Of a stretch of DNA of 11,441 bases, positions 1 through 11,441 are shown piece after piece (position 1 is the stretch's first letter; each line of letters opens with the position of its first letter). This stretch comes from a virus. Taxonomy: Duplodnaviria > Heunggongvirae > Uroviricota > Caudoviricetes. A program made the translations under genes and the position numbers. The DNA is taken from the IMG/VR virus record IMGVR_UViG_3300023487_000022. One strand, 5' to 3'. Below the pieces are notes generated by a model. That model searched no databases. It was not told where the DNA came from and saw only the letters and a program-made list of their open reading frames with translations.

Positions 1-40
1 TGATGTCACGCTGAAAATGCCGGCCTTTGAATGGGTTCAT
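1..40 (-). CDS. tnpA: IS26 transposase, first 13 codons only (cut by window edge)
   Basis: ATG at 40..38 on the minus strand, reading MNPFKGRHFQRDI, 38 bp inside the terminal IR. Confidence 0.85.
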   Translation of the reverse strand, partial: MNPFKGRHFQRDI

Positions 41-103
41 GTGCAGCTCCATCAGTAAAAGGGGATGATAAGTTTATCACCACCGACTATTTGCAACAGT
101 GCC
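1..103 (-). mobile_element. IS26 (IS6 family) terminal 103 bp; the element continues beyond the window start
   Basis: Reverse complement of 90-103 is GGCACTGTTGCAAA, the IS26 terminal inverted repeat. Reverse complement of 1-40 is ATGAACCCATTCAAAGGCCGGCATTTTCAGCGTGACATCA, the start of the IS26 transposase gene. Recognised from memory of the IS26 sequence, not from a search. Confidence 0.88.
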
Positions 104-152
104 CTTTTCTCTCCTGGCCTTCAGCAAGACCCAGCACCAATGAAGTATTCAT
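104..152 (-). pseudogene. 5' fragment of a gene truncated by the IS26 insertion
   Basis: Minus-strand ATG at 152..150 preceded by GGAG 5 nt upstream. It reads MNTSLVLGLAEGQERK and runs straight into the IS26 IR at 103. It sits directly downstream of a copy of the Y-type upstream module, as the intact ORF at 313-642 does. Confidence 0.4.
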
Positions 153-159
153 CACCACT

Positions 160-226
160 CCGTAAACAAATTGTTTTCTCAATGGCGTAAATAATACCAG
201 TGTAAAAACGGCTACAAAGCATATTG
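160..226 (-). promoter_or_regulatory. Y-type conserved upstream module, copy 1, with AAACAAATTGTTTT dyad at 164-177
   Basis: About 80% identical by eye over about 67 bp to 651-717; both copies lie immediately upstream (minus strand) of a start codon. Confidence 0.55.
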
Positions 227-312
227 CTCAGGCACATGAATTATCTAAAGGTGGTTCTTCCCTGCGGCTACAGAGAAGTTAAGCCAGCAGGCGGTGCTGG
301 CTTTGGTTGGGC

Positions 313-642
313 TTACGCGAATAACTCAAGGAATTCCTGCACGTCCCAATGCTGGACAAGGTGAAGATAGAGCTTAGAAATCACGTCATTCTCGCTATCG
401 CATGTGAAGTAGTACTTCTGGCTGCGGTTGTATGTGTCCACACAAAATTCGCTCATATCCATAAAGTCAGCATCTTCACCCATGTCGCAAATAATCAAAG
501 CAGGAGCATCATCACGAGTCATCAGCTCAAGCACCCAGCGCGAATTGATCAGCGTGGAAGACCAACCTTCTAACTCATAAAACTGGTCAAACTCTTTTTG
601 AGTCATTTTCTTGATTTGGTTGATGTCGATATTTGCAAACAT
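313..642 (-). CDS. Hypothetical small acidic protein (109 aa)
   Basis: ORF-track frame 313..708; start chosen at the internal ATG at 642 because AAGGA lies 7 nt upstream. Product MFANIDINQIKK...; by hand count about 21 D/E versus 8 K/R. No family recognised. Confidence 0.65.
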   Translation of the reverse strand: MFANIDINQIKKMTQKEFDQFYELEGWSSTLINSRWVLELMTRDDAPALIICDMGEDADFMDMSEFCVDTYNRSQKYYFTCDSENDVISKLYLHLVQHWDVQEFLELFA

Positions 643-650
643 AAAGCAAT

Positions 651-717
651 CCTTAAACATGTTGTTTTCTGAATTTCGTAAACAATACCAGTAAGAAAAC
701 GGCCACAAAGTATATCG
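651..717 (-). promoter_or_regulatory. Y-type conserved upstream module, copy 2, with AAACATGTTGTTTT dyad at 655-668
   Basis: Direct repeat of 160-226; abuts the RBS and ATG of the 313-642 CDS. Confidence 0.55.
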
Positions 718-781
718 TTACGGTGCTGCGCTGCCCCGGAGGTTAATAGCGACAAAAGCCACCGTGCTGGTGGTCTCACTC

Positions 782-1000
782 TTAATCTTCGTCGTCCGGG
801 AACTCGCTGTGTACCGCGTCCACCAGCTCCCGCTTTTCATCTTCACTAAGCAGGTGCCAGATATCCTTCCCTTTGGGCGATTCCCCTTCTACCGGGACGA
901 ACGACCACAACTTGCGGTACAACTCCGGCCCCACTGCATCCAGACACTCAGCCAGGGAATCCACACCCCACACCTCAACCGTCACAGGCATCTTAATCAT
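782..1000 (-). CDS. Hypothetical small acidic protein (72 aa)
   Basis: ATG at 1000 with GAGGA 7 nt upstream. Product MIKMPVTVEVWGVDSLAECLD...EFPDDED; about 18 D/E versus 7 K/R by hand count. Confidence 0.7.
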   Translation of the reverse strand: MIKMPVTVEVWGVDSLAECLDAVGPELYRKLWSFVPVEGESPKGKDIWHLLSEDEKRELVDAVHSEFPDDED

Positions 1001-1032
1001 CTCTTCATCCTCACTTCGTTTATATAACGTCT

Positions 1033-1088
1033 AAACATGTTGTTTACTTATTGGTGTTATTGTCGCAATAAGACAAAGGAGAAAAAGG
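1033..1088 (-). promoter_or_regulatory. X-type conserved upstream module, copy 1 (AAACATGTTGTTTA dyad 1033-1046; TTATTG-TCG-CAATAA dyad 1057-1071)
   Basis: About 80% identical by eye to 3801-3856; both lie immediately upstream of minus-strand start codons (1000 and 3788). Confidence 0.55.
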
Positions 1089-1387
1089 ATTTTATGTCGT
1101 GAAAGCCAGGCTGGGCAGTGAATATCCGGGAACGACACGGGAACCAGTATTTACGATATTCTGCTCTACGCGCGCCGCAGGGCTGGTGGGCAGAATTTTC
1201 TTCTCCCCGAAAACCTACTGAAATCGCTTGAGACCCGAGGATGGTCTGGCAGAATGGAGTTCAGCAGCTGCACGAGAGGGAACGACACTCCCTCGCGATT
1301 TTCAGGCGAGCGAAGAGCAAGGCGCACTCCCGAAGATTTCCCGCACTGCTCCCGCAGTCGTCCCTCGCTCTGTACCGGGATGTACCC

Positions 1388-1513
1388 GTTTCCCGACCGG
1401 CAGCCAGCCTTTTCCCGGTTCGTATAGCGGGATTCCCACCGTTTCCCTGAAAAACCTCCAGCCTTTTCCCTGCGGCGACGTTCCCGTTCCTGAAAAGGGA
1501 CATGGCTTTTCCC
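1388..1513. repeat. Array of about 7 degenerate direct repeats with TTTCCC core, roughly 21 bp period
   Basis: TTCCC cores at about 1390, 1412, 1433, 1443, 1466, 1481 and 1509. Three copies share AGCCTTTTCCC-G (1407-1418, 1460-1471, 1504-1516). Confidence 0.5.
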
Positions 1514-2588
1514 TGGATGGCTCGAAGGCTGACCGAAGGGGTGGATAGGGACGTTACGGGGGATGAAAACTATGGCTTGAATTTATACGAAGAAAGTGGC
1601 GATACCCCTCCTTCCCTTCCCACTTATACCTCCCACGAATTTTCTCTCTTATGTGGGCATAAACCTTCTCTCTGATAACGCTCAATACGGCGACTATTCC
1701 TGTGGGTGAAATGGGTGGTTTGTTCTTTCTACCGGCATATGTGGTTTCGTTCTTCTTGAGGTGGTTCTTCTCTGTGTTTTCGTCAGGGTTGTTCTCGTTG
1801 TTTTGGTGATTGTTCTTCTCTGTGTATGGAGTAATGGCAGGTGGGCGATTCCTTTCGTTATTGTATTTGAGTTGTTTGTCTTGAGAGCGTGAAAGGCTTT
1901 TGTGGTTATTTGTGTATTGAGTAATGGCGTTTCCCCGCGAATGTTCTGTTTCGTGTCTTTGGGGATTGAGGGAGTCCTTGCGGTAACAGGCTTCGTTAGA
2001 GTTTCAGTGGTTCTGGTGTTTATTCGCTGTTTGGGGAATGGCGTGTAGTGGGTATCGCATGTATGAATGTTTCGAGTTGCCTGTGAAAGTTAGGTTGGTT
2101 GTCCGGTAGCCTGGGAAGAAGAGGTGGGTCTTTTCAGTAGCCTGCCATAAAGAGGTTGGTTGTTTTTGGGAATGTGGGTAATGGCGTCTCTGGGTTTCCT
2201 GTGGGTGTGGTTAGCTTGTTTTCTTGTGTCTGAAAACAACTTGTTTAGATGTCCAATATAACGCAACGGGAGCGCTTCTGAGCGTGTCTGTTTTTGGGTG
2301 GTATCACGAGTCGTTTTTGACGTTTTGGTCGCAGGGAGATGGATTCTGGTACGCTGGATTTGGGTATAAGAGATGGCGTGCGAAAACATCAACTTTTTAG
2401 ACCAAATCAGGGGAAAGCGTTGACTTTACGTTGATGTGTTATTTATTTGTTTTCTTATGGGTGTAATTGGCTTAAATGCCTTGTCACGCCTGGGATTGAG
2501 TGGGGTAGGGTGGTGGGGAAAGTGGCGATCAACGGACTCTTATAGAAATCCTCAATTTGTGACCGCCAATATCAACGAGCTGCAGCCG

Positions 2589-3158
2589 TTAGTTGTTCAG
2601 ATAGGCATCCGGAACGCGCACATAAAAGTTTCTTTCGCCGGTCAGTTCCAGAGTAACGTTTATGTCGTTGCCGTTATCCAGCGTAGCCGTCGCTTTATAG
2701 AACTTGTCCGTCACCTTGTCCTGAATTGTCACCTTCATACATTTCGGCGCTGTGGTTCCGTTATTCTCTTTCAGAATGGTCGTTACGAGAGGACAAGCCG
2801 CTTCTTCAAGAGCAACCTCTTCCTGGTGTGGGATACCGATGAAGATGTTACCAGCAAGCAACGCGACGATTACGATAAAAGGAAGTCGACTGCCTTTTGT
2901 AACGGTGGCACGTTTCCAGAGATAGACCGGAAGGAGAAATACTCCCCACAGGATGGCCGGTGGTTCATACCCTGCATCAGACAATGCCATTCTGTCAGCC
3001 ACCAGAAAGCCGAGTCCAGCGACTCCACCTATCACTATTGCATAATTCAAATACTCATCTGGCGGTGCTCCAAAGAAGAGAGGCAGTAAAGCTAGAAGCC
3101 ACGCATAAGCATTATTCAGAGGTTTTGTTTGTTGGTTCTGGGTTTCCATCACATCCAT
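2589..3158 (-). CDS. Hypothetical membrane protein (189 aa), hydrophobic N-terminal half and soluble C-terminal domain
   Basis: ORF track; hydrophobic stretches (WLLALLPLFF, AIVIGGVAGLGFLV, ILWGVFLLPVYLW, FIVIVALLAGNIFIGI). Start uncertain between ATG 3158 and ATG 3149; RBS weak. The overlapping plus-strand ORF 2436-3089 has a non-protein-like composition. Confidence 0.65.
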   Translation of the reverse strand: MDVMETQNQQTKPLNNAYAWLLALLPLFFGAPPDEYLNYAIVIGGVAGLGFLVADRMALSDAGYEPPAILWGVFLLPVYLWKRATVTKGSRLPFIVIVALLAGNIFIGIPHQEEVALEEAACPLVTTILKENNGTTAPKCMKVTIQDKVTDKFYKATATLDNGNDINVTLELTGERNFYVRVPDAYLNN

Positions 3159-3234
3159 TCCATCAGATTAAAAAGCGGTACTATGTTACCAATTTTCTTC
3201 GCTTATATGACATGATTACTCAACGAGTGGGCGA

Positions 3235-3555
3235 TCACCATTCCCATGCAGGTAGCCCATCCACCAGCTCGGCGTCGCAATCGAAGTGAACCACGTCAAA
3301 GCCGTCATCCAGTATGGTCTGTATGTTGGAGATCGCCTCTTGGGAAATGCCGTACTCACGCAGTTCTTCCTTCCAGTCATTCCCTCGCATTCCAGCACGA
3401 ACAATCCAGCCGTACTGTGTACCGTGTACCCAATTCAACCCGCGATCAGTAAGTGGGTCGAAGCAGGCAATGGGTAGCCGTTCTGAATCCGCTGCCGTTA
3501 CGTGGGCGGTGCTGATCACCGCCGTCTTATACGATTCGGTGATTTTCAGCATCAT
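3235..3555 (-). CDS. Hypothetical acidic protein (106 aa), translationally coupled to the upstream gene
   Basis: ATG at 3555 overlaps the TGA of the 3552-3788 CDS (ATGA overlap); AAGGAG upstream. About 18 D/E versus 8 K/R by hand count. Confidence 0.72.
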   Translation of the reverse strand: MMLKITESYKTAVISTAHVTAADSERLPIACFDPLTDRGLNWVHGTQYGWIVRAGMRGNDWKEELREYGISQEAISNIQTILDDGFDVVHFDCDAELVDGLPAWEW

Positions 3556-3788
3556 GCCTTCTCCTTTGGAAACAGAATGTTGGCCGTGTCAGAAATGACA
3601 TCCCAATTCACGCCGACGCTGGTGTCATGGCACTCTTTGATTTTTCGCAAAACCTGAACGCACTGTTCGTCAGTCAGGTCTGGTCGCACTTCACCTACAT
3701 CTTCCTTGTGCCACATCACCATCAGCAGCGGCTCGTCTTCTGGGTAGTTCTCCAGCTTTTCGATGATGTCTTTTGCGGTTCCGAACAT
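3552..3788 (-). CDS. Hypothetical small acidic protein (78 aa)
   Basis: ATG at 3788 with AAGGAG 6 nt upstream; the track start at 3806 is a TTG that contains this SD. Product MFGTAKDIIEKLENYPEDEPLL... Confidence 0.72.
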   Translation of the reverse strand: MFGTAKDIIEKLENYPEDEPLLMVMWHKEDVGEVRPDLTDEQCVQVLRKIKECHDTSVGVNWDVISDTANILFPKEKA

Positions 3789-3800
3789 GATCAACTCCTT

Positions 3801-3856
3801 AAACAATTTATTTTCTTATTTGTGTTATTATCTCAAATAACAAAAGGTAGAAAACA
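3801..3856 (-). promoter_or_regulatory. X-type conserved upstream module, copy 2 (GTTATT-N6-AATAAC dyad 3824-3841; AAACA/TGTTT-like dyads at 3801-3814 and 3851-3865)
   Basis: Homologous to 1033-1088; lies between the 3874-4140 and 3552-3788 genes. Confidence 0.55.
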
Positions 3857-3873
3857 AAATGTTTAAGGGATGA

Positions 3874-4140
3874 CTAGGTGAGTTTGAAGTCGTCTATGTC
3901 ATCAACAAACTCCATATACCTGGCTTCGACACTCGACAATCTGATCAGATACGCAAGCCCGTAACTTAGTGAAGTGGGTTGCTCCAGCACAAATTCGAAC
4001 CCATCCTCATGCGTTTTACCAAGCCAGAACCCCCCACCGTATTCTTTTTCACGTTGGAAGAAAACGAACTGTCCGGGTATTAGGTGCTTGAGTGCTTCGC
4101 CCCTATAGACGATCACATATTTAGAATTCTTGCTGCCCAT
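3874..4140 (-). CDS. Hypothetical protein (88 aa)
   Basis: ORF-track frame 3874..4197; start chosen at ATG 4140 because GAGG lies 6 nt upstream, while the ATG at 4197 has no SD. Confidence 0.6.
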   Translation of the reverse strand: MGSKNSKYVIVYRGEALKHLIPGQFVFFQREKEYGGGFWLGKTHEDGFEFVLEQPTSLSYGLAYLIRLSSVEARYMEFVDDIDDFKLT

Positions 4141-4228
4141 TGCTCGCCTCGCAATACTGTACATATAAACAGTATTATTTATTACGGTACTGGTCAACTT
4201 TACGGGTTAATTGAATAACAAGATGGTG

Positions 4229-4243
4229 AAAACAATTTGTTTT
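4229..4243. promoter_or_regulatory. Perfect 15 bp palindrome AAAACAATTTGTTTT in a divergent promoter region; candidate operator
   Basis: Seven-base arms around a central T, between the minus-strand start at 4140 and the plus-strand start at 4328; the strongest copy of the recurring AAACA-N-TGTTT dyad. Confidence 0.5.
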
Positions 4244-4327
4244 GGCACTTGAGATTTTGCAAATCGCACCTACATGGAAAACGGCAATTTTTGAAACCTG
4301 ATTTGACCCATGTGAAAGGAGGAAACG

Positions 4328-4531
4328 ATGAAGACCTATGATCGCAACCGTAACGCTATCACTACCGGCAGCCGAGTGATGGTGGCAACGAATGGTGCAA
4401 CGGGAGTCATCAAGGAAATCTGCGGAGAAGGCAAATCAGAAGAACAATTACGCCGCTCTGACTGCGTGTCTATCGAAGGTGTGGAAGGTCTATTCTGCCC
4501 AATGGATTTGGTTCGCCTGGGGTTCCATTAA
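4328..4531 (+). CDS. Hypothetical small protein (67 aa); candidate regulator
   Basis: ATG at 4328 with AGGAGG SD 5 nt upstream. It is the only plus-strand gene in the island and is transcribed divergently from the palindrome at 4229-4243. Confidence 0.72.
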   Translation: MKTYDRNRNAITTGSRVMVATNGATGVIKEICGEGKSEEQLRRSDCVSIEGVEGLFCPMDLVRLGFH

Positions 4532-4558
4532 TTTCACCATCTATAAAACAAATTGTTT

Positions 4559-4579
4559 AAGGCCACAACTAGTGGCCTT
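4559..4579. terminator. GC-rich inverted repeat AAGGCCAC-AACTA-GTGGCCTT between convergent genes; possible bidirectional terminator
   Basis: 8 bp stem, 5 nt loop. The T-rich tract on the minus-strand side is offset by about 6 nt, so terminator function is uncertain. Confidence 0.4.
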
Positions 4580-4586
4580 ATCTGGC

Positions 4587-5285
4587 TTACGGAACAGCGG
4601 TAATCAGATCGCAAATGCCTGTTTTAGTTAAATCACTATTCAGCTTCTGAAAATTGGCATTCAGCATTGCGGTATGTATTCGATTCTCAAGTTCAAAGAA
4701 GAGACCGATCTTGCCCTCTTTGGCTGCCACCTTCTTCCAAATATTCACCTGGTCATCTGCGATACGACTTGCGCAGGTGAACAAGAACGAACTCCCTCTG
4801 GGAAGGGATGTCGTGCTGTAGTATTCACCGTCAACTTCAATATACTTAGCTCGGAATGACTCCAGAGTTAGCTTTTTACCGCTCTCAGCCTGCTTTGTGT
4901 CTGCCTTGCTTGTCTTTTCCTGAACTTCAGGCTGTTTCTGCACAGGCTTTGGTGTCTCATTGACCACCGCAGTGCTGGCCGAACCATCCAAACTCTTGAG
5001 GCCATTAATTTGGATTAGATAAGCCAACTCCAGAGCCTTATCACCAGTGAGTTTTCCACGCATACTTACCCATTGACGCTGAACCGTCTTTAAGGCGTCT
5101 GCGTCCCCCGGGTTTGCTTTGAGTGCGTTGGAATAGGTAGAGCTAAGTTGTTCGTCTAATTTTGACAGGCGTTCGTTATCGCAGATTTTGTGTTCGATTT
5201 CTGCCGAAGCCTTTTGGCAGTCAAAGCTGGCTGCAAATACAGCCGGCGATGCCACCAACAATGATGCCAGTAGGATATTTTTCAT
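4587..5285 (-). CDS. Secreted protein with DUF1311 (LprI-like) N-terminal domain (232 aa)
   Basis: ATG at 5285 with GGAG upstream. Signal peptide MKNILLASLLVASPAVFA with an AXA-type cleavage site, followed by the Cys/Leu pattern FDCQKASAEIEHKICDNERLSKLDEQLSSTYSNALKA...QRQWVSMRG, which matches DUF1311 from memory. C-terminal domain unassigned. Confidence 0.78.
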   Translation of the reverse strand: MKNILLASLLVASPAVFAASFDCQKASAEIEHKICDNERLSKLDEQLSSTYSNALKANPGDADALKTVQRQWVSMRGKLTGDKALELAYLIQINGLKSLDGSASTAVVNETPKPVQKQPEVQEKTSKADTKQAESGKKLTLESFRAKYIEVDGEYYSTTSLPRGSSFLFTCASRIADDQVNIWKKVAAKEGKIGLFFELENRIHTAMLNANFQKLNSDLTKTGICDLITAVP

Positions 5286-5323
5286 ATTCACTCCATAAAT
5301 ATAAAAGCGCCTGACTATAGCAC

Positions 5324-5539
5324 TTAACCAATTGCTTCTCTCATCTGATTGTGAAGCTCTTTCAGCCCATCACGTACCGCGTTCATGATACGTTCCAGGG
5401 ATTGGTATCTGGGGTTTGGCACTGTTGGCCAACCGGCATACCACGGATCGTCACCAAACAGACTCAGCAGTTCGTTACCGACACCGAAACAGCAGCAACT
5501 TTCTTTTACGTCATCAGCGTTTTCTGCCTCGTCCCACAT
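5324..5539 (-). CDS. Hypothetical protein (71 aa), possibly the C-terminal remnant of a longer disrupted gene
   Basis: ORF track; in the same frame as 5774-6505 but separated from it by stops. The frame is open upstream of the ATG as far as 5626. Confidence 0.4.
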   Translation of the reverse strand: MWDEAENADDVKESCCCFGVGNELLSLFGDDPWYAGWPTVPNPRYQSLERIMNAVRDGLKELHNQMREAIG

Positions 5540-5773
5540 ATTGCGGGCCTGCTCTGCGTCGATTTCTCTCTCTCCCTGCGCAACTTTATGATTTCGGATT
5601 TGACGAAAAGCAGGTTTGCGTCGTTGTCATCGTCGACCGTACTGAAGTGGCACACTGAATTTGGCCGTCTGTAATGGGCAGATCCGGCAACTGTTTAAAA
5701 ACATCCATCTGCTCATGGATACGCAGAAACCACCTTGCCAGCTCCATCTGCTCACCGCGGGTGAGGAGATTAT

Positions 5774-6505
5774 TCAGCGGGGACTTAACAAAAGCGGAGA
5801 CTCGCTCGACAAGCCGGCCAGTGAACCAACATCCCCCCAATTCTGGTGTGTCAGCGCCCCGATACTTACCACTCCAGGCAGCACTTCTTTGTGGTTGTGG
5901 TAGTGCCCGGACAACAATAAACGGAAGCCGATATCTTTCAGTTCCTGTGCGTCGATGCCGACATCGGGCATGGTGGGGATCGCTTTGTTGATTGAGGTAT
6001 GTACAACAACATCATGGTTGTCACCATCCAGCCCGGAACGCAGCGTTTTGAGATCGCTGATAAGTTCTGCGTAGTTATTACGCCAGCTAATCAGATGGAC
6101 GGTTACGTCGCCCATTTTGATGGAATGAGGACGTTTGCCGCAGACGATTTCCACACCGATTGAGCGCAGAGAGGCTGCTGCATTGGCGCTGTATACGGAA
6201 TCGTTGGTTTCGAGGTCGTGGTTGCCAGCCAGCATTACCACCTTGAGACCCAACTCTTTGATGATCCACTCGTAAGTTTCGGTCACGAAATGCAGAACGG
6301 AAGGTGATATAGCACCGCGAACATGGAAGGTATCACCAGCTACCAGCATGTTCTTACAGCCAGCAGCTTTCATCGCTTTGGCCGCCTCCTTCGTAGCGTC
6401 CAGTTGGATCTCCAGCCGAGAGTTAAGCCCGTCAGCGTTTGTTGTCGCAAAAGCATCCCAACGATGATAATGGGGATCTGATATTACCCCGTATGGCAAT
6501 GTCAT
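5774..6505 (-). CDS. Calcineurin-like metallophosphoesterase (243 aa)
   Basis: ATG at 6505 with AAGGA upstream. Ordered motifs ISDPHYH, GDTFHVRG, GNHD and GHYHNH match the metallophosphatase signature (D-x-H, GD-x-x-D/H-R-G, GNH[DE], GH-x-H). Confidence 0.75.
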   Translation of the reverse strand: MTLPYGVISDPHYHRWDAFATTNADGLNSRLEIQLDATKEAAKAMKAAGCKNMLVAGDTFHVRGAISPSVLHFVTETYEWIIKELGLKVVMLAGNHDLETNDSVYSANAAASLRSIGVEIVCGKRPHSIKMGDVTVHLISWRNNYAELISDLKTLRSGLDGDNHDVVVHTSINKAIPTMPDVGIDAQELKDIGFRLLLSGHYHNHKEVLPGVVSIGALTHQNWGDVGSLAGLSSESPLLLSPR

Positions 6506-6848
6506 GTGTCTTTTCCTTTGTGGTTATTTTGATACAAATTCTAAGCGTGCATAAGAGGCGTACAACCCAGACAACACGGCACACAAAAGAATATAAAGGC
6601 ACATGATAATAACAAAAAAATAAGTAAGTAAATACCTATCAGATAGGGCAGCAACGATTTCTAAACGTCACAAGCAATTTTATGAGAGCAGTCATTTACT
6701 GATGACAAGAAATGAAAAAGGAGAACGGACGGTGAAGTTGTGAGATGACATTTACGGCGTTTGCGTGCGTCGTCTTCAAACGCATCCGTCGGCCACAGTT
6801 TCTGCTCTTGAATAAAATTCACTCATGCATTAATCCCTAAAGCTCTCA

Positions 6849-6875
6849 GTGTCTTTCTAAGACACCATATTTTAT
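6849..6875 (+). terminator. Hairpin GTGTCTT-TCT-AAGACAC followed by CATATTTTAT; candidate plus-strand rho-independent terminator
   Basis: Perfect 7 bp stem, 3 nt loop, T-rich tail on the plus strand only; lies just after a 31-codon plus-strand ORF (6745-6840). Confidence 0.45.
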
Positions 6876-6901
6876 GCCCGGTAAAAAGCATGAGTTTGCC
6901 T

Positions 6902-7546
6902 TTAAAACGTCTCTGAGGGCTTCTGACGCGCTCTGCTAATGTCTATTACCCCAGCTTTTGGACGAGGGTCTACAAGATTCAACTCTTCAGCACTGTGATA
7001 CTCCGTGTCGAACTCCCGATCGACATGGCGAATGTAAATGGCTGTCAGAAGGCTGTTATCATTCAGAAAGTGTCCGTAAGATTTGCGAATTACTTCGCCA
7101 ACCTTCTCAATCTTCTCTCCGCCCATGCAGAGATGGTTAAATCGGCTGTGTTTCCGCAGCATTTCATCCACCGGGCCTGAGTAGACCTTATCAACTCTCC
7201 CGAACCGGATGATATTTCCGGTATCAGCTTCAACCAGACAAACGAGTTTGCCAGGTTCGACACGATCTCGCCAAGTGACACCAGAGCGCAGTGTGTTGAA
7301 GTAGGGAGCATCCAATCCGATGATCGGTTTACGAAATGCTAGTAGTGGCACGTAACGTATGCAGCTGTTTAGGTGGAAATGCGCACCGGCGTCGTGGAGT
7401 TTAAGCCGGGTTTCGTTAATCGGGCATTTCGAAGCAATGCCGCAAAGGTCGCAGAGCAACTTCTGTTTGTTCAGACTAGTGTTTGATTCAATGGTGTAGG
7501 AGCCATCTTCAAGACGGCGAACCCAGCGCGTGCGTTTAAGATCCAT
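6902..7546 (-). CDS. Hypothetical protein (214 aa) with a CDLCGIASKC Cys cluster
   Basis: ORF track, ATG at 7546, weak RBS. No family recognised. Confidence 0.6.
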   Translation of the reverse strand: MDLKRTRWVRRLEDGSYTIESNTSLNKQKLLCDLCGIASKCPINETRLKLHDAGAHFHLNSCIRYVPLLAFRKPIIGLDAPYFNTLRSGVTWRDRVEPGKLVCLVEADTGNIIRFGRVDKVYSGPVDEMLRKHSRFNHLCMGGEKIEKVGEVIRKSYGHFLNDNSLLTAIYIRHVDREFDTEYHSAEELNLVDPRPKAGVIDISRARQKPSETF

Positions 7547-7645
7547 AATTCTTGTTCAAATAATTTTGTCCGGGGCAACGATAACGGATAAGGCGCACCG
7601 GAGTTTGCAAATGCCTGTTTACTTATTCACTTTATTCACAGGCCC

Positions 7646-7703
7646 GATCCAATATTTAGATCCCCAGAGAGATCCTACAGAAGATCAAAAGAGATCCCCG
7701 ATC
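7646..7703. promoter_or_regulatory. GATC (Dam site) cluster, 6 sites in 58 bp; origin-like element
   Basis: GATC at 7646, 7659, 7671, 7683, 7693 and 7700, next to an AT-rich segment and just upstream of iteron cluster 1; this resembles the arrangement at P1-type origins. Confidence 0.5.
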
Positions 7704-7744
7704 GTCTCCAGCGCTTGCGGTTACTGGCTTGAGAAGGGGTTACT

Positions 7745-7846
7745 ATCCACTATAGGGAGCAAAATAACCACTGTAGAGAGCATAATAACCGCTATGAAGA
7801 GCAAAACAACCTCTCTGGAGAGTAGTCGGTATCCACTGTAGTGAGT
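7745..7846 (+). repeat. Iteron cluster 1: 5 direct repeats, about 21 bp spacing, core A(A/T)CCACT(A/G)TAG(A/T)GAG
   Basis: Copies at 7745-7760, 7766-7781, 7787-7802, 7808-7823 (degenerate) and 7831-7846. Confidence 0.8.
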
Positions 7847-8127
7847 AGGAGACAATGTTTTAACTGGATAACTCCGAGCCTGTTTTTCTGCGGCAGATGG
7901 CTGATATTCTTGGAAATATTGTAAATTTTGCGTTGCGGCGTGTTTATTTCGATCACACATTATCCCCAGAAGGGGAGTGATGCCTGATTTTGTAATTATC
8001 TGATTTTTATACACAGGCCCGATCCAGTAATTCAGATCCCTGTTAGAACCAAAGAGAACCACAAAGACCCAAAGAGATCCCCGGCCCTTGCAAACCGTTG
8101 TGCCACATGGCTTTAGAGGTTATCGAT

Positions 8128-8249
8128 ATCCACTATAGTGAGAAGAACAACCACTATAGAGAGTAAATCAACCACTATGGAGAGTAGAAAAACCGCTGTA
8201 GGCGGTAGGATAACCACTGTGATGGGTGCTACTATCCACTGTAATCAGT
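8128..8249 (+). repeat. Iteron cluster 2: 6 direct repeats at 21-22 bp spacing, immediately upstream of repA
   Basis: Copies at 8128-8143, 8149-8164, 8170-8185, 8191-8206, 8212-8227 and 8234-8249. Confidence 0.82.
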
Positions 8250-8288
8250 AAAGGCACCCAAGCCGTCGAATAAAAAGAGACATTTGGA

Positions 8289-9344
8289 ATGAGCGTAAAC
8301 GACAATAAAAACATTGCGATAAGCGAAGCATTTTCCGAAACAGACAAAAAGACCGGCGAAGTTGTTACGTTAGTTCCTAACACCAACAACACAGTTCAGC
8401 CTGTTGCTCTGATGCGTCTTGGTCTCTTCGTTCCGACGCTGAAATCGACATCCAGGGGTAGAAAGGGGCAAATGGTCTCTATGGACGCCTCCGCTGAACT
8501 CAAACAGCTGTCTCTGGCCAAAGCCGAAGGGTACGAGGATATAAGGATTGCTGGTCTTCGTCTTGATATGGATAACGATTTCAAAACATGGGTGGGCATC
8601 ATCCACGCGTTCGCCAAGCACAAGGTTGTTGGTGACACCGTCACGTTGCCGTTCGTCGAGTTCGTCAGACTTTGTGGCATACCAACAGCCAGATCGTCCG
8701 CGAAGTTACGTAAGCGCCTGGACAGCTCTCTAAGTCGTATCGCCACAAACACCATCTCATTCCGCAGCAAAGGCTCTGAAGAGTATTACGTTACGCACCT
8801 TGTGCAGACGGCAAAGTACAGTACCAAGAATGACACGGTCGAACTGAAGGCCGATCCTAAGATTTTCGAACTTTACCAGTTCGACAAAAAGGTGCTTTTG
8901 CAACTTCGGGCCATCAACGAACTCTCCAGAAAGGAATCCGCGCAGGCGCTCTACACCTTCATTGAAAGTTTGCCACCAGACCCGGCGCCAATCTCATTGG
9001 CTCGCTTACGCGCCAGACTTAACTTAACCAGCCGCACCATTACCCAGAATGCGACAGTCAGGAAGGCGATGGAGCAGCTGCGAGAGATCGGCTATCTCGA
9101 TTACACTGAAGTGAAACGCGGCAGCTCGGTCTACTTCGTCATCCACTATAGACGGCCGAAGTTACGTTCGGCACTGCCGCCATCTATGGCTACGCCTGAA
9201 GAGCCAGAAGATATCTTGCCAGGTGATGATCCGGAGGACATTATCGATGTTGCCCCTGAAGAAAAAGACGGGGAAATGGTCATGTTGAGCAAGGAAGAAC
9301 TGGCGATTCTCGAAGAGCTGCGCAAGGCAAAGGCTCGCAAATAG
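8289..9344 (+). CDS. repA: Iteron-binding replication initiator RepA, RepFIB/P1 RepA family (351 aa)
   Basis: Product contains [57 protein letters not shown] and [10 protein letters not shown], which I recognise as conserved in P1 RepA and RepFIB RepA. Flanked on both sides by iterons. Confidence 0.9.
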
Positions 9345-11172: not shown

Positions 11173-11389
11173 TCAACAAAAACTGGCCACCGAGTTAGAT
11201 TTTTTCCAGTATCGATTTTCCGATTCATTTGGGGGTAATCCACCGTTATATTCGTGCGGTCTTAGTGCGCTGTAATATCCAACGATATAGTCCGTTATGG
11301 CGTGAGCTGCCTCGCTGAAGCTTACGTAACCCACCACCGGCATCCATTCGTTCTTCAGACTCCTGAAGAAGCGTTCCATTGGGCTGTTG
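11173..11389 (-). pseudogene. C-terminal fragment of an IS3-family transposase (OrfB tail), truncated upstream
   Basis: Reads ...SVNSPMERFFRSLKNEW...YYSALRPHEYNGGLPPNESE, resembling the conserved IS3-family DDE-domain tail (DNAxxESFFxxLKxE ... RxHxxLGxxxPxEFE). An in-frame stop at 11390-11392 sits just upstream of the conserved motif, and no other frame continues the homology. Confidence 0.55.
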
Positions 11390-11441
11390 ACGCTCCTATG
11401 TCAAGAGCGGGCGATTGGCATATGTGAGATCTGATAAAATC

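What the first reader, a model, noticed from the sequence alone, without database searches (positions are those of the whole stretch)
5324..6505. Metallophosphoesterase followed by an oddly phased reading-frame pattern suggesting compensating frameshifts
The 243 aa phosphoesterase frame ends at 5774, but the same frame reopens from 5626 to 5324. The intervening segment is open in another frame (5586-5840), and a third frame is also open locally (reading TVDDDNDANLLFVKSEIIKL around 5640-5581). A C6 homopolymer on the plus strand at 5834-5839 sits close to where the first frame switch would be (the 5774-5840 overlap). This could be a roughly 390 aa ancestral protein with a C-terminal extension broken by indels, a sequencing error, or two or three short genes.
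Basis: seen in the sequence. Interest (0 to 1): 0.5.

Follow-up and report, generated by a model that had tools for sequence, protein, structure and literature searches.

The report
Deletion scars in decayed phage-plasmid
The odd three-frame pattern is not one protein broken by compensating frameshifts. It is three unrelated gene remnants in a degraded SSU5-type phage-plasmid, joined by two old deletions and one 2-base insertion, which is an ordinary and already annotated kind of gene decay.

Summary
The explanation is different from the one proposed.

- **The 243-aa ORF (5774-6505, minus strand).** It is the 5' 231 codons of a 361-aa SbcD-like metallophosphoesterase of SSU5-family phage-plasmids.
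- **Junction 1.** At a 4-bp microhomology (GCTT, 5814-5811) an 18.1-kb deletion joins this gene, out of frame, to nt 12 of an unrelated 93-aa gene. The size is counted on E. coli S56 plasmid B. The deletion removed the C-terminal 130 codons, the SbcC-like ATPase partner and 21 other genes.
- **Junction 2.** An older ~1.45-kb deletion (5654-5644) joins that 93-aa remnant (5814-5655) to the last 105 codons of a 183-aa gene (5643-5324).
- **The one true frameshift.** The 183-aa remnant carries a +2 (GA)4-to-(GA)5 insertion at 5574-5565.

The missing C-terminus of the phosphoesterase matches no downstream frame. The C6 run is identical in intact homologs. Junction 1 is identical in five independent plasmid assemblies, so it is not a sequencing error. 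RefSeq already marks both loci as pseudogenes. This is ordinary and of low interest.

The parts
5812..6505 (-). Native part of the SbcD-like metallophosphoesterase gene: codons 1-231 plus the first base of codon 232, which is cut by the junction. All catalytic motifs are retained (D10-x-H12, GD58, GN95H96D, H169, GH201-x-H203).
   Evidence: It is 97% identical over residues 1-231 to the 361-aa WP_032187693.1, and identity stops there. Pfam PF00149 scores 37 bits against a 21.5 cutoff. phrog_100 'SbcD-like subunit' gives E 1e-64 and covers only profile positions 27-245, whereas the full-length protein covers 27-380. The motifs were read from the translation.
5774..5811 (-). Foreign tail of the 243-aa ORF. 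It comprises 12 codons (LSSESPLLLSPR) and the TGA stop, read out of frame from the 93-aa gene remnant.
   Evidence: Alignments, and the frame translations.
5811..5814 (-). Junction 1: a 4-bp microhomology (GCTT on the minus strand) where the phosphoesterase gene is fused to nt 12 of the 93-aa gene. It corresponds to an 18,100-bp deletion counted on E. coli S56 plasmid B.
   Evidence: Window 4354-5814 matches L010 1-1461 and window 5811-8254 matches L010 19558-22001. See also the alignment. The identical 100-nt junction is present in 5 PLSDB plasmids.
5833..5838 (+). C6 homopolymer (G6 on the coding strand). It is not a frameshift site.
   Evidence: The same run is present in L001, which has the intact 361-aa ORF.
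5655..5814 (-). Remnant of a 93-aa phage-plasmid gene (WP_006812541.1 type, phrog_10451), nt 12-171 of 282. Its start codon and ribosome-binding site are lost. It forms the core of the 84-aa ORF at 5586-5840.
   Evidence: tblastn places p93 residues 5-57 at window 5813-5655 with 88.7% identity. See also the alignment, the annotation, and the phrog_10451 match at E 9e-23.
5644..5654 (-). Junction 2: 11 nt (TGTGCCACTTC) that match neither parent gene, lying between the 93-aa and 183-aa gene remnants. It corresponds to a 1,448-bp deletion counted on C. freundii NZ_CP114568.1.
   Evidence: BLAST coordinates against L009 are and the sequence context is. The 100-nt junction is identical in 26 PLSDB plasmids.
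5324..5643 (-). 3' remnant (codons 79-183 plus stop) of a 183-aa gene (WP_058687813.1 type, phrog_3451). It is split over two frames: the 49-aa ORF at 5506-5655 and the 71-aa ORF at 5324-5539.
   Evidence: tblastn places p183 residues 78-104 in one frame and residues 102-183 in another. See also the alignment. The PGAP note reads 'frameshifted; incomplete; missing N-terminus' at the same coordinates. The phrog_3451 matches are.
5565..5574 (-). (GA)5 run carrying a +2 insertion relative to the (GA)4 of the intact 183-aa gene. This is the only real frameshift in the region.
   Evidence: The alignment (window and L002 CAGGGAGAGAGAGAAATC against L006 CAGG--GAGAGAGAAATC).

Best explanation
Window 5324-6505 is a patch of gene wreckage in a degraded SSU5-family phage-plasmid (IncFIB replicon). 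Three unrelated genes are fused head to tail on the minus strand.

1. The first 231 codons of a 361-aa SbcD/Mre11-like metallophosphoesterase.
2. Nt 12-171 of a 93-aa gene of unknown function.
3. The last 105 codons of a 183-aa gene of unknown function.

The likely order of events is as follows. An older deletion of about 1.45 kb fused gene 2 to gene 3 and removed three genes between them. The now useless gene 3 remnant gained a GA dinucleotide by slippage in a (GA)4 run. Later, an 18.1-kb illegitimate recombination at a 4-bp microhomology (GCTT) fused the phosphoesterase gene out of frame to gene 2. That event removed the phosphoesterase C-terminal 130 codons, its SbcC-like ATPase partner and the phage nucleotide-metabolism module.

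The 243-aa ORF therefore encodes a truncated nuclease core with a 12-residue nonsense tail and no partner. It is most likely a non-functional pseudogene, and the downstream open frames are non-functional leftovers.

The breakpoints, the homologies and the indel are shown by the tool results. The order of the events, the slippage mechanism and the loss of function are inferred.
For: **Breakpoints**
- Megablast homology to intact phosphoesterase plasmids ends at window 5811. Homology to a second locus starts at 5814.
- Collinear BLAST against E. coli S56 plasmid B gives window 4354-5814 = L010 1-1461 and window 5811-8254 = L010 19558-22001. That is an 18,100-bp gap holding 22 annotated CDS, including the SbcC-like ATPase, thyA, dfrA51, a 3'-5' exonuclease and a dam-type methylase.

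**The phosphoesterase**
- The intact protein is 361 aa, is followed by a 638-aa SbcC-like ATPase, and matches phrog_100 and phrog_77, the 'SbcD/SbcC-like subunits of palindrome specific endonuclease'.
- Identity of the window protein stops at residue 231.
- The missing C-terminus matches nothing downstream.

**The downstream remnants**
- They map onto the 93-aa and 183-aa genes of intact relatives.
- The GA insertion is visible.

**The junctions are inherited, not artefacts**
- Junction 1 is in 5 plasmids, from human, bovine and gull hosts and from wastewater.
- Junction 2 is in 26 plasmids, including all 5 with junction 1 and also full-size plasmids that still have the intact phosphoesterase. 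Junction 2 is therefore the older event.
- The exact 243-aa product is on 148 contigs, while most listed members of its 90% cluster (including the representative) are 361 aa.

**Independent annotation and context**
- RefSeq PGAP calls both loci pseudogenes: 'missing C-terminus', and 'frameshifted; incomplete; missing N-terminus'.
- In two sister plasmids an IS3 element sits inside the phosphoesterase remnant, which argues against selection for its integrity.
- The nearest complete record (pB379_2, 99.9% identical) is full of IS elements, cargo operons and pseudogenes. It has lost most phage structural genes and has no SbcC-like gene elsewhere.
Against: - The truncated ORF keeps its native start, upstream region and every phosphoesterase active-site motif, and differs from the intact allele at only three residues before the breakpoint. 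Residual expression or activity cannot be excluded.
- The 79-aa junction-2 fusion ORF is annotated as a real protein (WP_072650124.1) in relatives, and the 71-aa ORF is annotated in GenBank submissions.
- The 11 nt at junction 2 match neither parent.
- The two sides of junction 1 differ in identity to S56 plasmid B (96.8% against 99.6%). The event could have been recombination between two co-resident related elements instead of a simple intramolecular deletion.
Confidence: 0.93

Rival explanations
1. One reading: a single ancestral protein of about 390 aa, a phosphoesterase with a C-terminal extension, disrupted by two or three compensating frameshifts. One of these would be at the C6 homopolymer, and the pattern could reflect sequencing error.
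For: The frames do tile the region. The phosphoesterase is indeed shorter than its homologs. A homopolymer lies near the first frame overlap.
Against: - Residues 232-361 of the intact protein have no tblastn match in any frame of 5300-5900.
- The downstream frames match two other protein families, phrog_10451 and phrog_3451.
- The homopolymer is identical in intact genes.
- The junction is identical in five independent complete assemblies, and the product is on 148 contigs.
Confidence: 0.01
2. The region holds a truncated but functional stand-alone nuclease gene plus two or three genuine small genes (84/79 aa, 49 aa, 71 aa) that are expressed and maintained.
For: - All catalytic motifs are retained in the 243-aa product.
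- The same allele is widespread (148 contigs).
- The 79-aa and 71-aa ORFs are annotated as proteins in some records and even form their own PHROG families, phrog_35423 and phrog_34949.
Against: - Each small ORF is a piece of a longer gene that is intact in relatives.
- The 84-aa ORF has lost its native ATG and ribosome-binding site.
- An IS3 element has inserted into the phosphoesterase remnant in sister plasmids.
- The partner ATPase is gone.
- PGAP calls the loci pseudogenes.
- The small PHROG families are most simply explained as annotated fragments.
Confidence: 0.05
3. Programmed ribosomal frameshifting at the GA-rich run (GGGAGAGAGAGAAA, 5576-5563) joins the 49-aa and 71-aa frames into one product.
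For: The two frames are consecutive parts of one family. They switch at a repetitive run.
Against: - Intact homologs encode the protein in one frame with (GA)4.
- The remnant lacks the first 78 codons and any native start.
- The two-frame state occurs only in the lineage that already carries deletion 2.
Confidence: 0.01

Closest known systems
SbcD-like / SbcC-like nuclease pair of SSU5-family phage-plasmids (Salmonella phage SSU5, pHCM2 of S. Typhi, Y. pestis pMT1-type plasmids); PHROG 100 and PHROG 77
   Same: The first 231 residues are 97% identical to the E. coli phage-plasmid protein WP_032187693.1. The DNA is 92.7% identical to the SSU5 'putative exonuclease subunit 1' gene. The upstream neighbours and the IncFIB repA are the same.
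   Different: The C-terminal 130 residues are missing. By analogy with SbcD/Mre11 (my own knowledge) this is the capping and SbcC-binding region. The adjacent SbcC-like ATPase gene is also missing.
E. coli SbcCD and the Mre11-Rad50 family, including the phage T4 gp47/gp46 and T5 D13/D12 pairs (own knowledge)
   Same: It has the calcineurin-like phosphoesterase fold signature (PF00149). In intact relatives it is paired with an SMC-like ATPase (PF13476, PF02463, PF13558).
   Different: The sequence relationship is only distant. The best match among solved structures is a short stretch of 'Nuclease MPE' 6nvo at E 5e-4. In the window the pair is broken.
Defective or hybrid phage-plasmids
   Same: The nearest complete record, pB379_2, keeps repA, portal and terminase. 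It is otherwise interrupted by IS26, IS1, IS3 and IS5 elements, carries ars, ttr, bcs and dha cargo, and has many pseudogenes. Published surveys describe hybrid or defective derivatives of phage-plasmids (abstract of PMC12977533). SSU5 is treated as a phage-plasmid group in PMC7969092.
   Different: Nothing distinctive. This is one more example of the same process.

Membership tests
Calcineurin-like metallophosphoesterase (Pfam PF00149) | Profile match above the curated gathering score | tested here: met
   37 bits against a cutoff of 21.5, residues 4-204.
Calcineurin-like metallophosphoesterase (Pfam PF00149) | Conserved metal-binding motifs D-x-H, G-D, G-N-H-D/E, H, G-H-x-H | tested here: met
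   Read from the translation: D10PH12, GD58, GN95H96D97, H169, GH201YH203. The motif definitions are from my own knowledge of the family.
SbcD/Mre11-type nuclease subunit | Full-length match including the region C-terminal to the phosphoesterase core | tested here: not met
   The window protein covers phrog_100 positions 27-245 only, while the intact 361-aa homolog covers 27-380. Identity ends at residue 231, and there is no match to residues 232-361 downstream.
SbcD/Mre11-type nuclease subunit | Adjacent SbcC/Rad50-like SMC-type ATPase gene | tested here: not met
   It is present directly downstream in intact relatives. It is deleted in the window and is not annotated anywhere in the 99.9% identical plasmid pB379_2.
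SbcD/Mre11-type nuclease subunit | Mn2+-dependent nuclease activity | not testable with these tools
   This needs biochemistry.
SSU5-family phage-plasmid backbone | Collinear nucleotide homology to SSU5 and pHCM2-like elements, with an IncFIB-type repA | tested here: met
   92.7% identity to phage SSU5 over the phosphoesterase gene. Hundreds of IncFIB plasmids in Escherichia, Salmonella, Enterobacter, Yersinia and Citrobacter match. repA lies at window 8289-9344.
SSU5-family phage-plasmid backbone | Complete phage structural and lysis module (a functional phage) | tested here: not met
   In pB379_2, portal and terminase large subunit are the only phage structural or packaging genes annotated. 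The backbone is interrupted by IS elements and cargo. This was tested on the nearest record, not on the unknown source of the window.
Programmed ribosomal frameshift gene | Two-frame arrangement conserved in full-length homologs, with an intact upstream ORF | tested here: not met
   Homologs are single-frame with (GA)4. The window copy lacks codons 1-78.
Pseudogene / deletion scar | Truncation or frameshift relative to intact orthologs, with abrupt loss of DNA homology at a breakpoint | tested here: met
   PGAP flags the loci as pseudogenes.

The most novel reading that the evidence does not exclude
The truncated SbcD-like nuclease core may be more than dead weight. It has an intact active site, its native start and a 12-residue foreign tail, and the same allele is on 148 contigs in E. 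coli, Salmonella and Shigella. It could be kept as a partner-independent nuclease, or as a dominant-negative modulator of the host SbcCD. Alternatively, the deletion-made fusion ORFs (79/84 aa and 71 aa) could be newly born expressed micro-genes.
Probability: 0.04. Interest if true: 0.35.

Novelty: already known. Interest (0 to 1): 0.08.

Why it matters
It matters little beyond correct annotation. Three practical points follow.

- **A three-frame ORF mosaic can be something other than a frameshifted gene.** Here the tiling of open frames comes from several gene remnants stitched together by deletions.
- **Fragment proteins have entered reference resources.** The 243-aa, 79/84-aa and 71-aa products are catalogued as if they were proteins or families (phrog_34949, phrog_35423, WP_072650124.1), which can mislead automatic annotation.
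- **The 18.1-kb deletion is a usable lineage marker.** It identifies a defective SSU5-type phage-plasmid that has lost its SbcCD-like nuclease and nucleotide-metabolism module and has become a cargo plasmid.

Tried and rejected
- **Pfam on the downstream ORFs.** It gave only sub-threshold noise (PIR, MLLE_2, Lambda_CIII), which I ignored.
- **The phosphoesterase C-terminus in downstream frames.** tblastn of residues 232-361 against all frames of 5300-5900 found nothing. The compensating-frameshift model is rejected.
- **The C6 homopolymer as an indel site.** It is identical in intact genes. Rejected.
- **Antisense (plus-strand) ORFs** 5351-5674, 5416-5658, 5661-5903 and 5674-5991 have no PHROG match.
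- **Origin of the 11 nt at junction 2.** The first 9 nt of the 11-mer do not occur anywhere in the 28-kb C. freundii reference interval. This remains unexplained.
- **Solved structures.** The search gave only a weak local hit, 6nvo 'Nuclease MPE' at E 5e-4, so the domain boundary was not mapped structurally. I did not run structure prediction or the large protein searches because the answer did not depend on them.
- **Odd cluster memberships.** The 71-aa ORF is clustered with 561-aa DUF4942 proteins, and the 79-aa ORF with an unrelated 126-aa protein. BLASTP and inspection show no similarity. This is a quirk of the database.
- **Rfam** at gathering threshold found nothing in the window.
- **The promoter and terminator scan** of 5200-6700 was at background level.

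Full report
**Observation.**
- On the minus strand a 243-aa ORF runs from 6505 to 5774, with its stop at 5776-5774.
- The same frame is closed again at 5629-5627 and is then open to 5324.
- A second frame is open over 5840-5586 (84 aa).
- A third frame is open over 5655-5506 and reads TVDDDNDANLLFVKSEIIKL at 5640-5581.
- The only inaccuracy is the C6 run, which is at 5833-5838 and not 5834-5839.

**What the DNA is.** Window 1-8288 is 99.96% identical to the matching stretch of E. coli plasmid pB379_2 (NZ_CP090457.1, IncFIB), and the query region 5200-6600 is 99.9% identical to it. The backbone belongs to the SSU5 family of phage-plasmids.
- The phosphoesterase gene is 92.7% identical to the 'putative exonuclease subunit 1' gene of Salmonella phage SSU5.
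- It is also found in several hundred IncFIB plasmids of Escherichia, Enterobacter, Yersinia, Salmonella and Citrobacter.
- SSU5 is a recognised phage-plasmid group (PMC7969092).

**The phosphoesterase is truncated by a deletion, not by a frameshift.** Megablast with 5200-6600 splits the query cleanly. Plasmids with an annotated 'metallophosphoesterase / exonuclease SbcCD subunit D' match only down to window 5811. A different set of records matches only from 5814 onward.
- In intact relatives the gene encodes 361 aa and is followed by a 638-aa SbcC-like AAA ATPase. These match phrog_100 and phrog_77, the 'SbcD-like' and 'SbcC-like subunit of palindrome specific endonuclease'. The ATPase also matches Pfam AAA_23, SMC_N and SbcC_Walker_B.
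- The window protein is 97% identical to the 361-aa protein through residue 231 and unrelated thereafter.
- The base-level alignment shows the switch at GCTT (minus strand, 5814-5811), which both parents share.
- Collinear BLAST against E. coli S56 plasmid B (NZ_CP010244.1) gives window 4354-5814 = L010 1-1461 and window 5811-8254 = L010 19558-22001. That is an 18,100-bp deletion.
- In the S56 relative the lost interval holds the 3' 392 nt of the phosphoesterase gene and 22 annotated CDS. These include the SbcC-like ATPase, a MazG-like pyrophosphohydrolase, thymidylate synthase, DfrA51, a 3'-5' exonuclease, a phage N6-adenine methyltransferase and a DUF4942 methyltransferase.
- The fusion is out of frame, so the phosphoesterase ORF reads 12 foreign codons (LSSESPLLLSPR) and stops at 5776-5774.
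- Residues 232-361 of the intact protein have no tblastn match in any frame of 5300-5900.
- The G6/C6 run is unchanged in plasmids with the intact ORF.

**The second frame (5840-5586).** Window 5814-5655 corresponds to nt 12-171 of a 93-aa gene (WP_006812541.1, phrog_10451). In intact elements this gene lies about 18-21 kb downstream of the phosphoesterase on the same strand. Junction 1 removed its ATG and ribosome-binding site. The TTG at 5840 is merely the first start-like codon of the open frame, and it lies inside phosphoesterase sequence.

**The third frame and the reopening first frame.** Window 5643-5324 corresponds to the last 318 nt (codons 79-183) of a 183-aa gene (WP_058687813.1, phrog_3451).
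- Between the 93-aa remnant and this remnant lies junction 2 (5654-5644). These 11 nt match neither parent.
- Relative to C. freundii NZ_CP114568.1, junction 2 is a 1,448-bp deletion. It removed the 3' end of the 93-aa gene, a 123-aa gene, an HD-domain gene, a 67-aa gene and the first 78 codons of the 183-aa gene.
- Inside the 183-aa remnant the window has (GA)5 at 5574-5565 where the intact gene has (GA)4.
- This +2 insertion moves the reading from the frame of the 49-aa ORF to the frame of the 71-aa ORF. The latter happens to be the same phase as the phosphoesterase.
- PHROG matches show this independently. The 49-aa ORF hits phrog_3451 positions 183-213 and the 71-aa ORF hits positions 217-285.
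- The one real frameshift in the region therefore lies in an unrelated gene that was already decapitated.

**These are real, inherited scars.**
- A 100-nt probe across junction 1 is 100% identical in five complete plasmids. They come from E. coli of human, bovine and gull origin and from a wastewater Shigella flexneri.
- The exact 243-aa product is on 148 contigs, including one from Salmonella Agona, while most listed members of its 90% cluster (including the representative) are 361 aa.
- A probe across junction 2 is identical in 26 plasmids. These include all five with junction 1 and also full-size (106-115 kb) plasmids that keep the intact phosphoesterase and ATPase. Junction 2 is therefore the older event.
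- RefSeq PGAP annotates window 6505-5795 as 'metallophosphoesterase, incomplete, missing C-terminus'. It annotates 5643-5324 as 'hypothetical protein, frameshifted; incomplete; missing N-terminus'.
- In two sister plasmids an IS3 element has additionally landed inside the phosphoesterase remnant.

**Context and likely consequence.** pB379_2 is a 152-kb mosaic. It has an SSU5-type repA, replication genes, portal and terminase. It also has IS26, IS1, IS3, IS5 and IS110 copies, group II introns, many pseudogenes, and ars, ttr, bcs and dha cargo operons. No SbcC-like gene is annotated anywhere on it, and portal and terminase are the only phage structural or packaging genes annotated. This fits the defective or hybrid derivatives of phage-plasmids described in the literature (abstract of PMC12977533).

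My inference is that the 243-aa product retains the phosphoesterase core. All metal-binding motifs lie before residue 204. It lacks the C-terminal region that in SbcD/Mre11 proteins caps the active site and binds the ATPase partner (own knowledge), and the partner itself is gone. It is therefore most likely inert. Residual activity cannot be excluded from sequence alone.

**Open points.**
- The 11 nt at junction 2 are unexplained. They could be filler DNA or come from an unsampled parental variant.
- The two sides of junction 1 differ in identity to S56 plasmid B (96.8% against 99.6%), although pLR-62-2_1 matches both sides at 99.3% or better. I cannot tell whether junction 1 arose by intramolecular deletion or by recombination between two co-resident related elements.

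**Verdict.** The thing itself is an ordinary, already annotated pair of pseudogene scars.

Noticed in passing
window 997-2589: About 1.6 kb has no annotated gene in the RefSeq record and mostly 'none' under the match in related plasmids. It is nevertheless conserved at 80-93% identity across SSU5-like plasmids of Escherichia, Enterobacter, Salmonella, Klebsiella and Buttiauxella. Positions 1601-2400 are strongly G+T-rich on the plus strand, with GC skew up to +0.42 and AT skew down to -0.46. The stretch contains degenerate direct repeats: units of about 30 nt at 2070-2163...AATGGCGT repeats at 1900, 2014 and 2157, CCTTTTCCC(T/G)G repeats at 1392-1515, and a 24-bp tandem at 1763-1825. There is no Rfam hit. 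It could be an origin, a binding-site array or a non-coding RNA.
   Followed up: partly
window 7747-7822 and 8130-8201: There are two arrays of 21-bp repeats (CCACTATAGAGAG...), each about 3.5 copies, upstream of repA (8289-9344). They lie within two ~210-bp segments that are about 70% identical to each other. They look like iterons of the IncFIB-type replicon.
   Followed up: no
PHROG families phrog_34949 (243 aa) and phrog_35423 (71 aa); WP_072650124.1 (79 aa): Reference resources carry families or proteins that correspond exactly to the deletion-made fragments. These are the truncated phosphoesterase with its 12-residue nonsense tail, the 71-aa tail of the 183-aa protein, and the 79-aa junction-2 fusion ORF. 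They are likely annotation artefacts that propagate.
   Followed up: partly
Listing of cluster members output: The 71-aa ORF is listed in one 90% cluster with 561-aa DUF4942 proteins, and the 79-aa ORF is listed with an unrelated 126-aa protein. BLASTP (71-aa ORF vs DUF4942) and inspection of the 126-aa sequence show no similarity. This appears to be a clustering quirk of the collection, not biology.
   Followed up: yes
window 11173-11441 (minus strand): The 68-aa ORF at 11173-11379 looks like the C-terminal end of an IS3-family transposase. It corresponds to the 'integrase core domain-containing protein, incomplete' pseudogene at 2884-3183 of pB379_2, which is followed there by an IS110 element and a group II intron. 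This is another scar at the edge of the window.
   Followed up: no
L010 (NZ_CP010244.1) 12070-12540, inside the interval deleted from the window: The closest intact relative carries dfrA51, a trimethoprim-resistant dihydrofolate reductase, within the phage nucleotide-metabolism module. A paper on dfrA50 and dfrA51 in phage-plasmids exists (PMC12217456). The window lineage has lost this gene through the 18.1-kb deletion.
   Followed up: no
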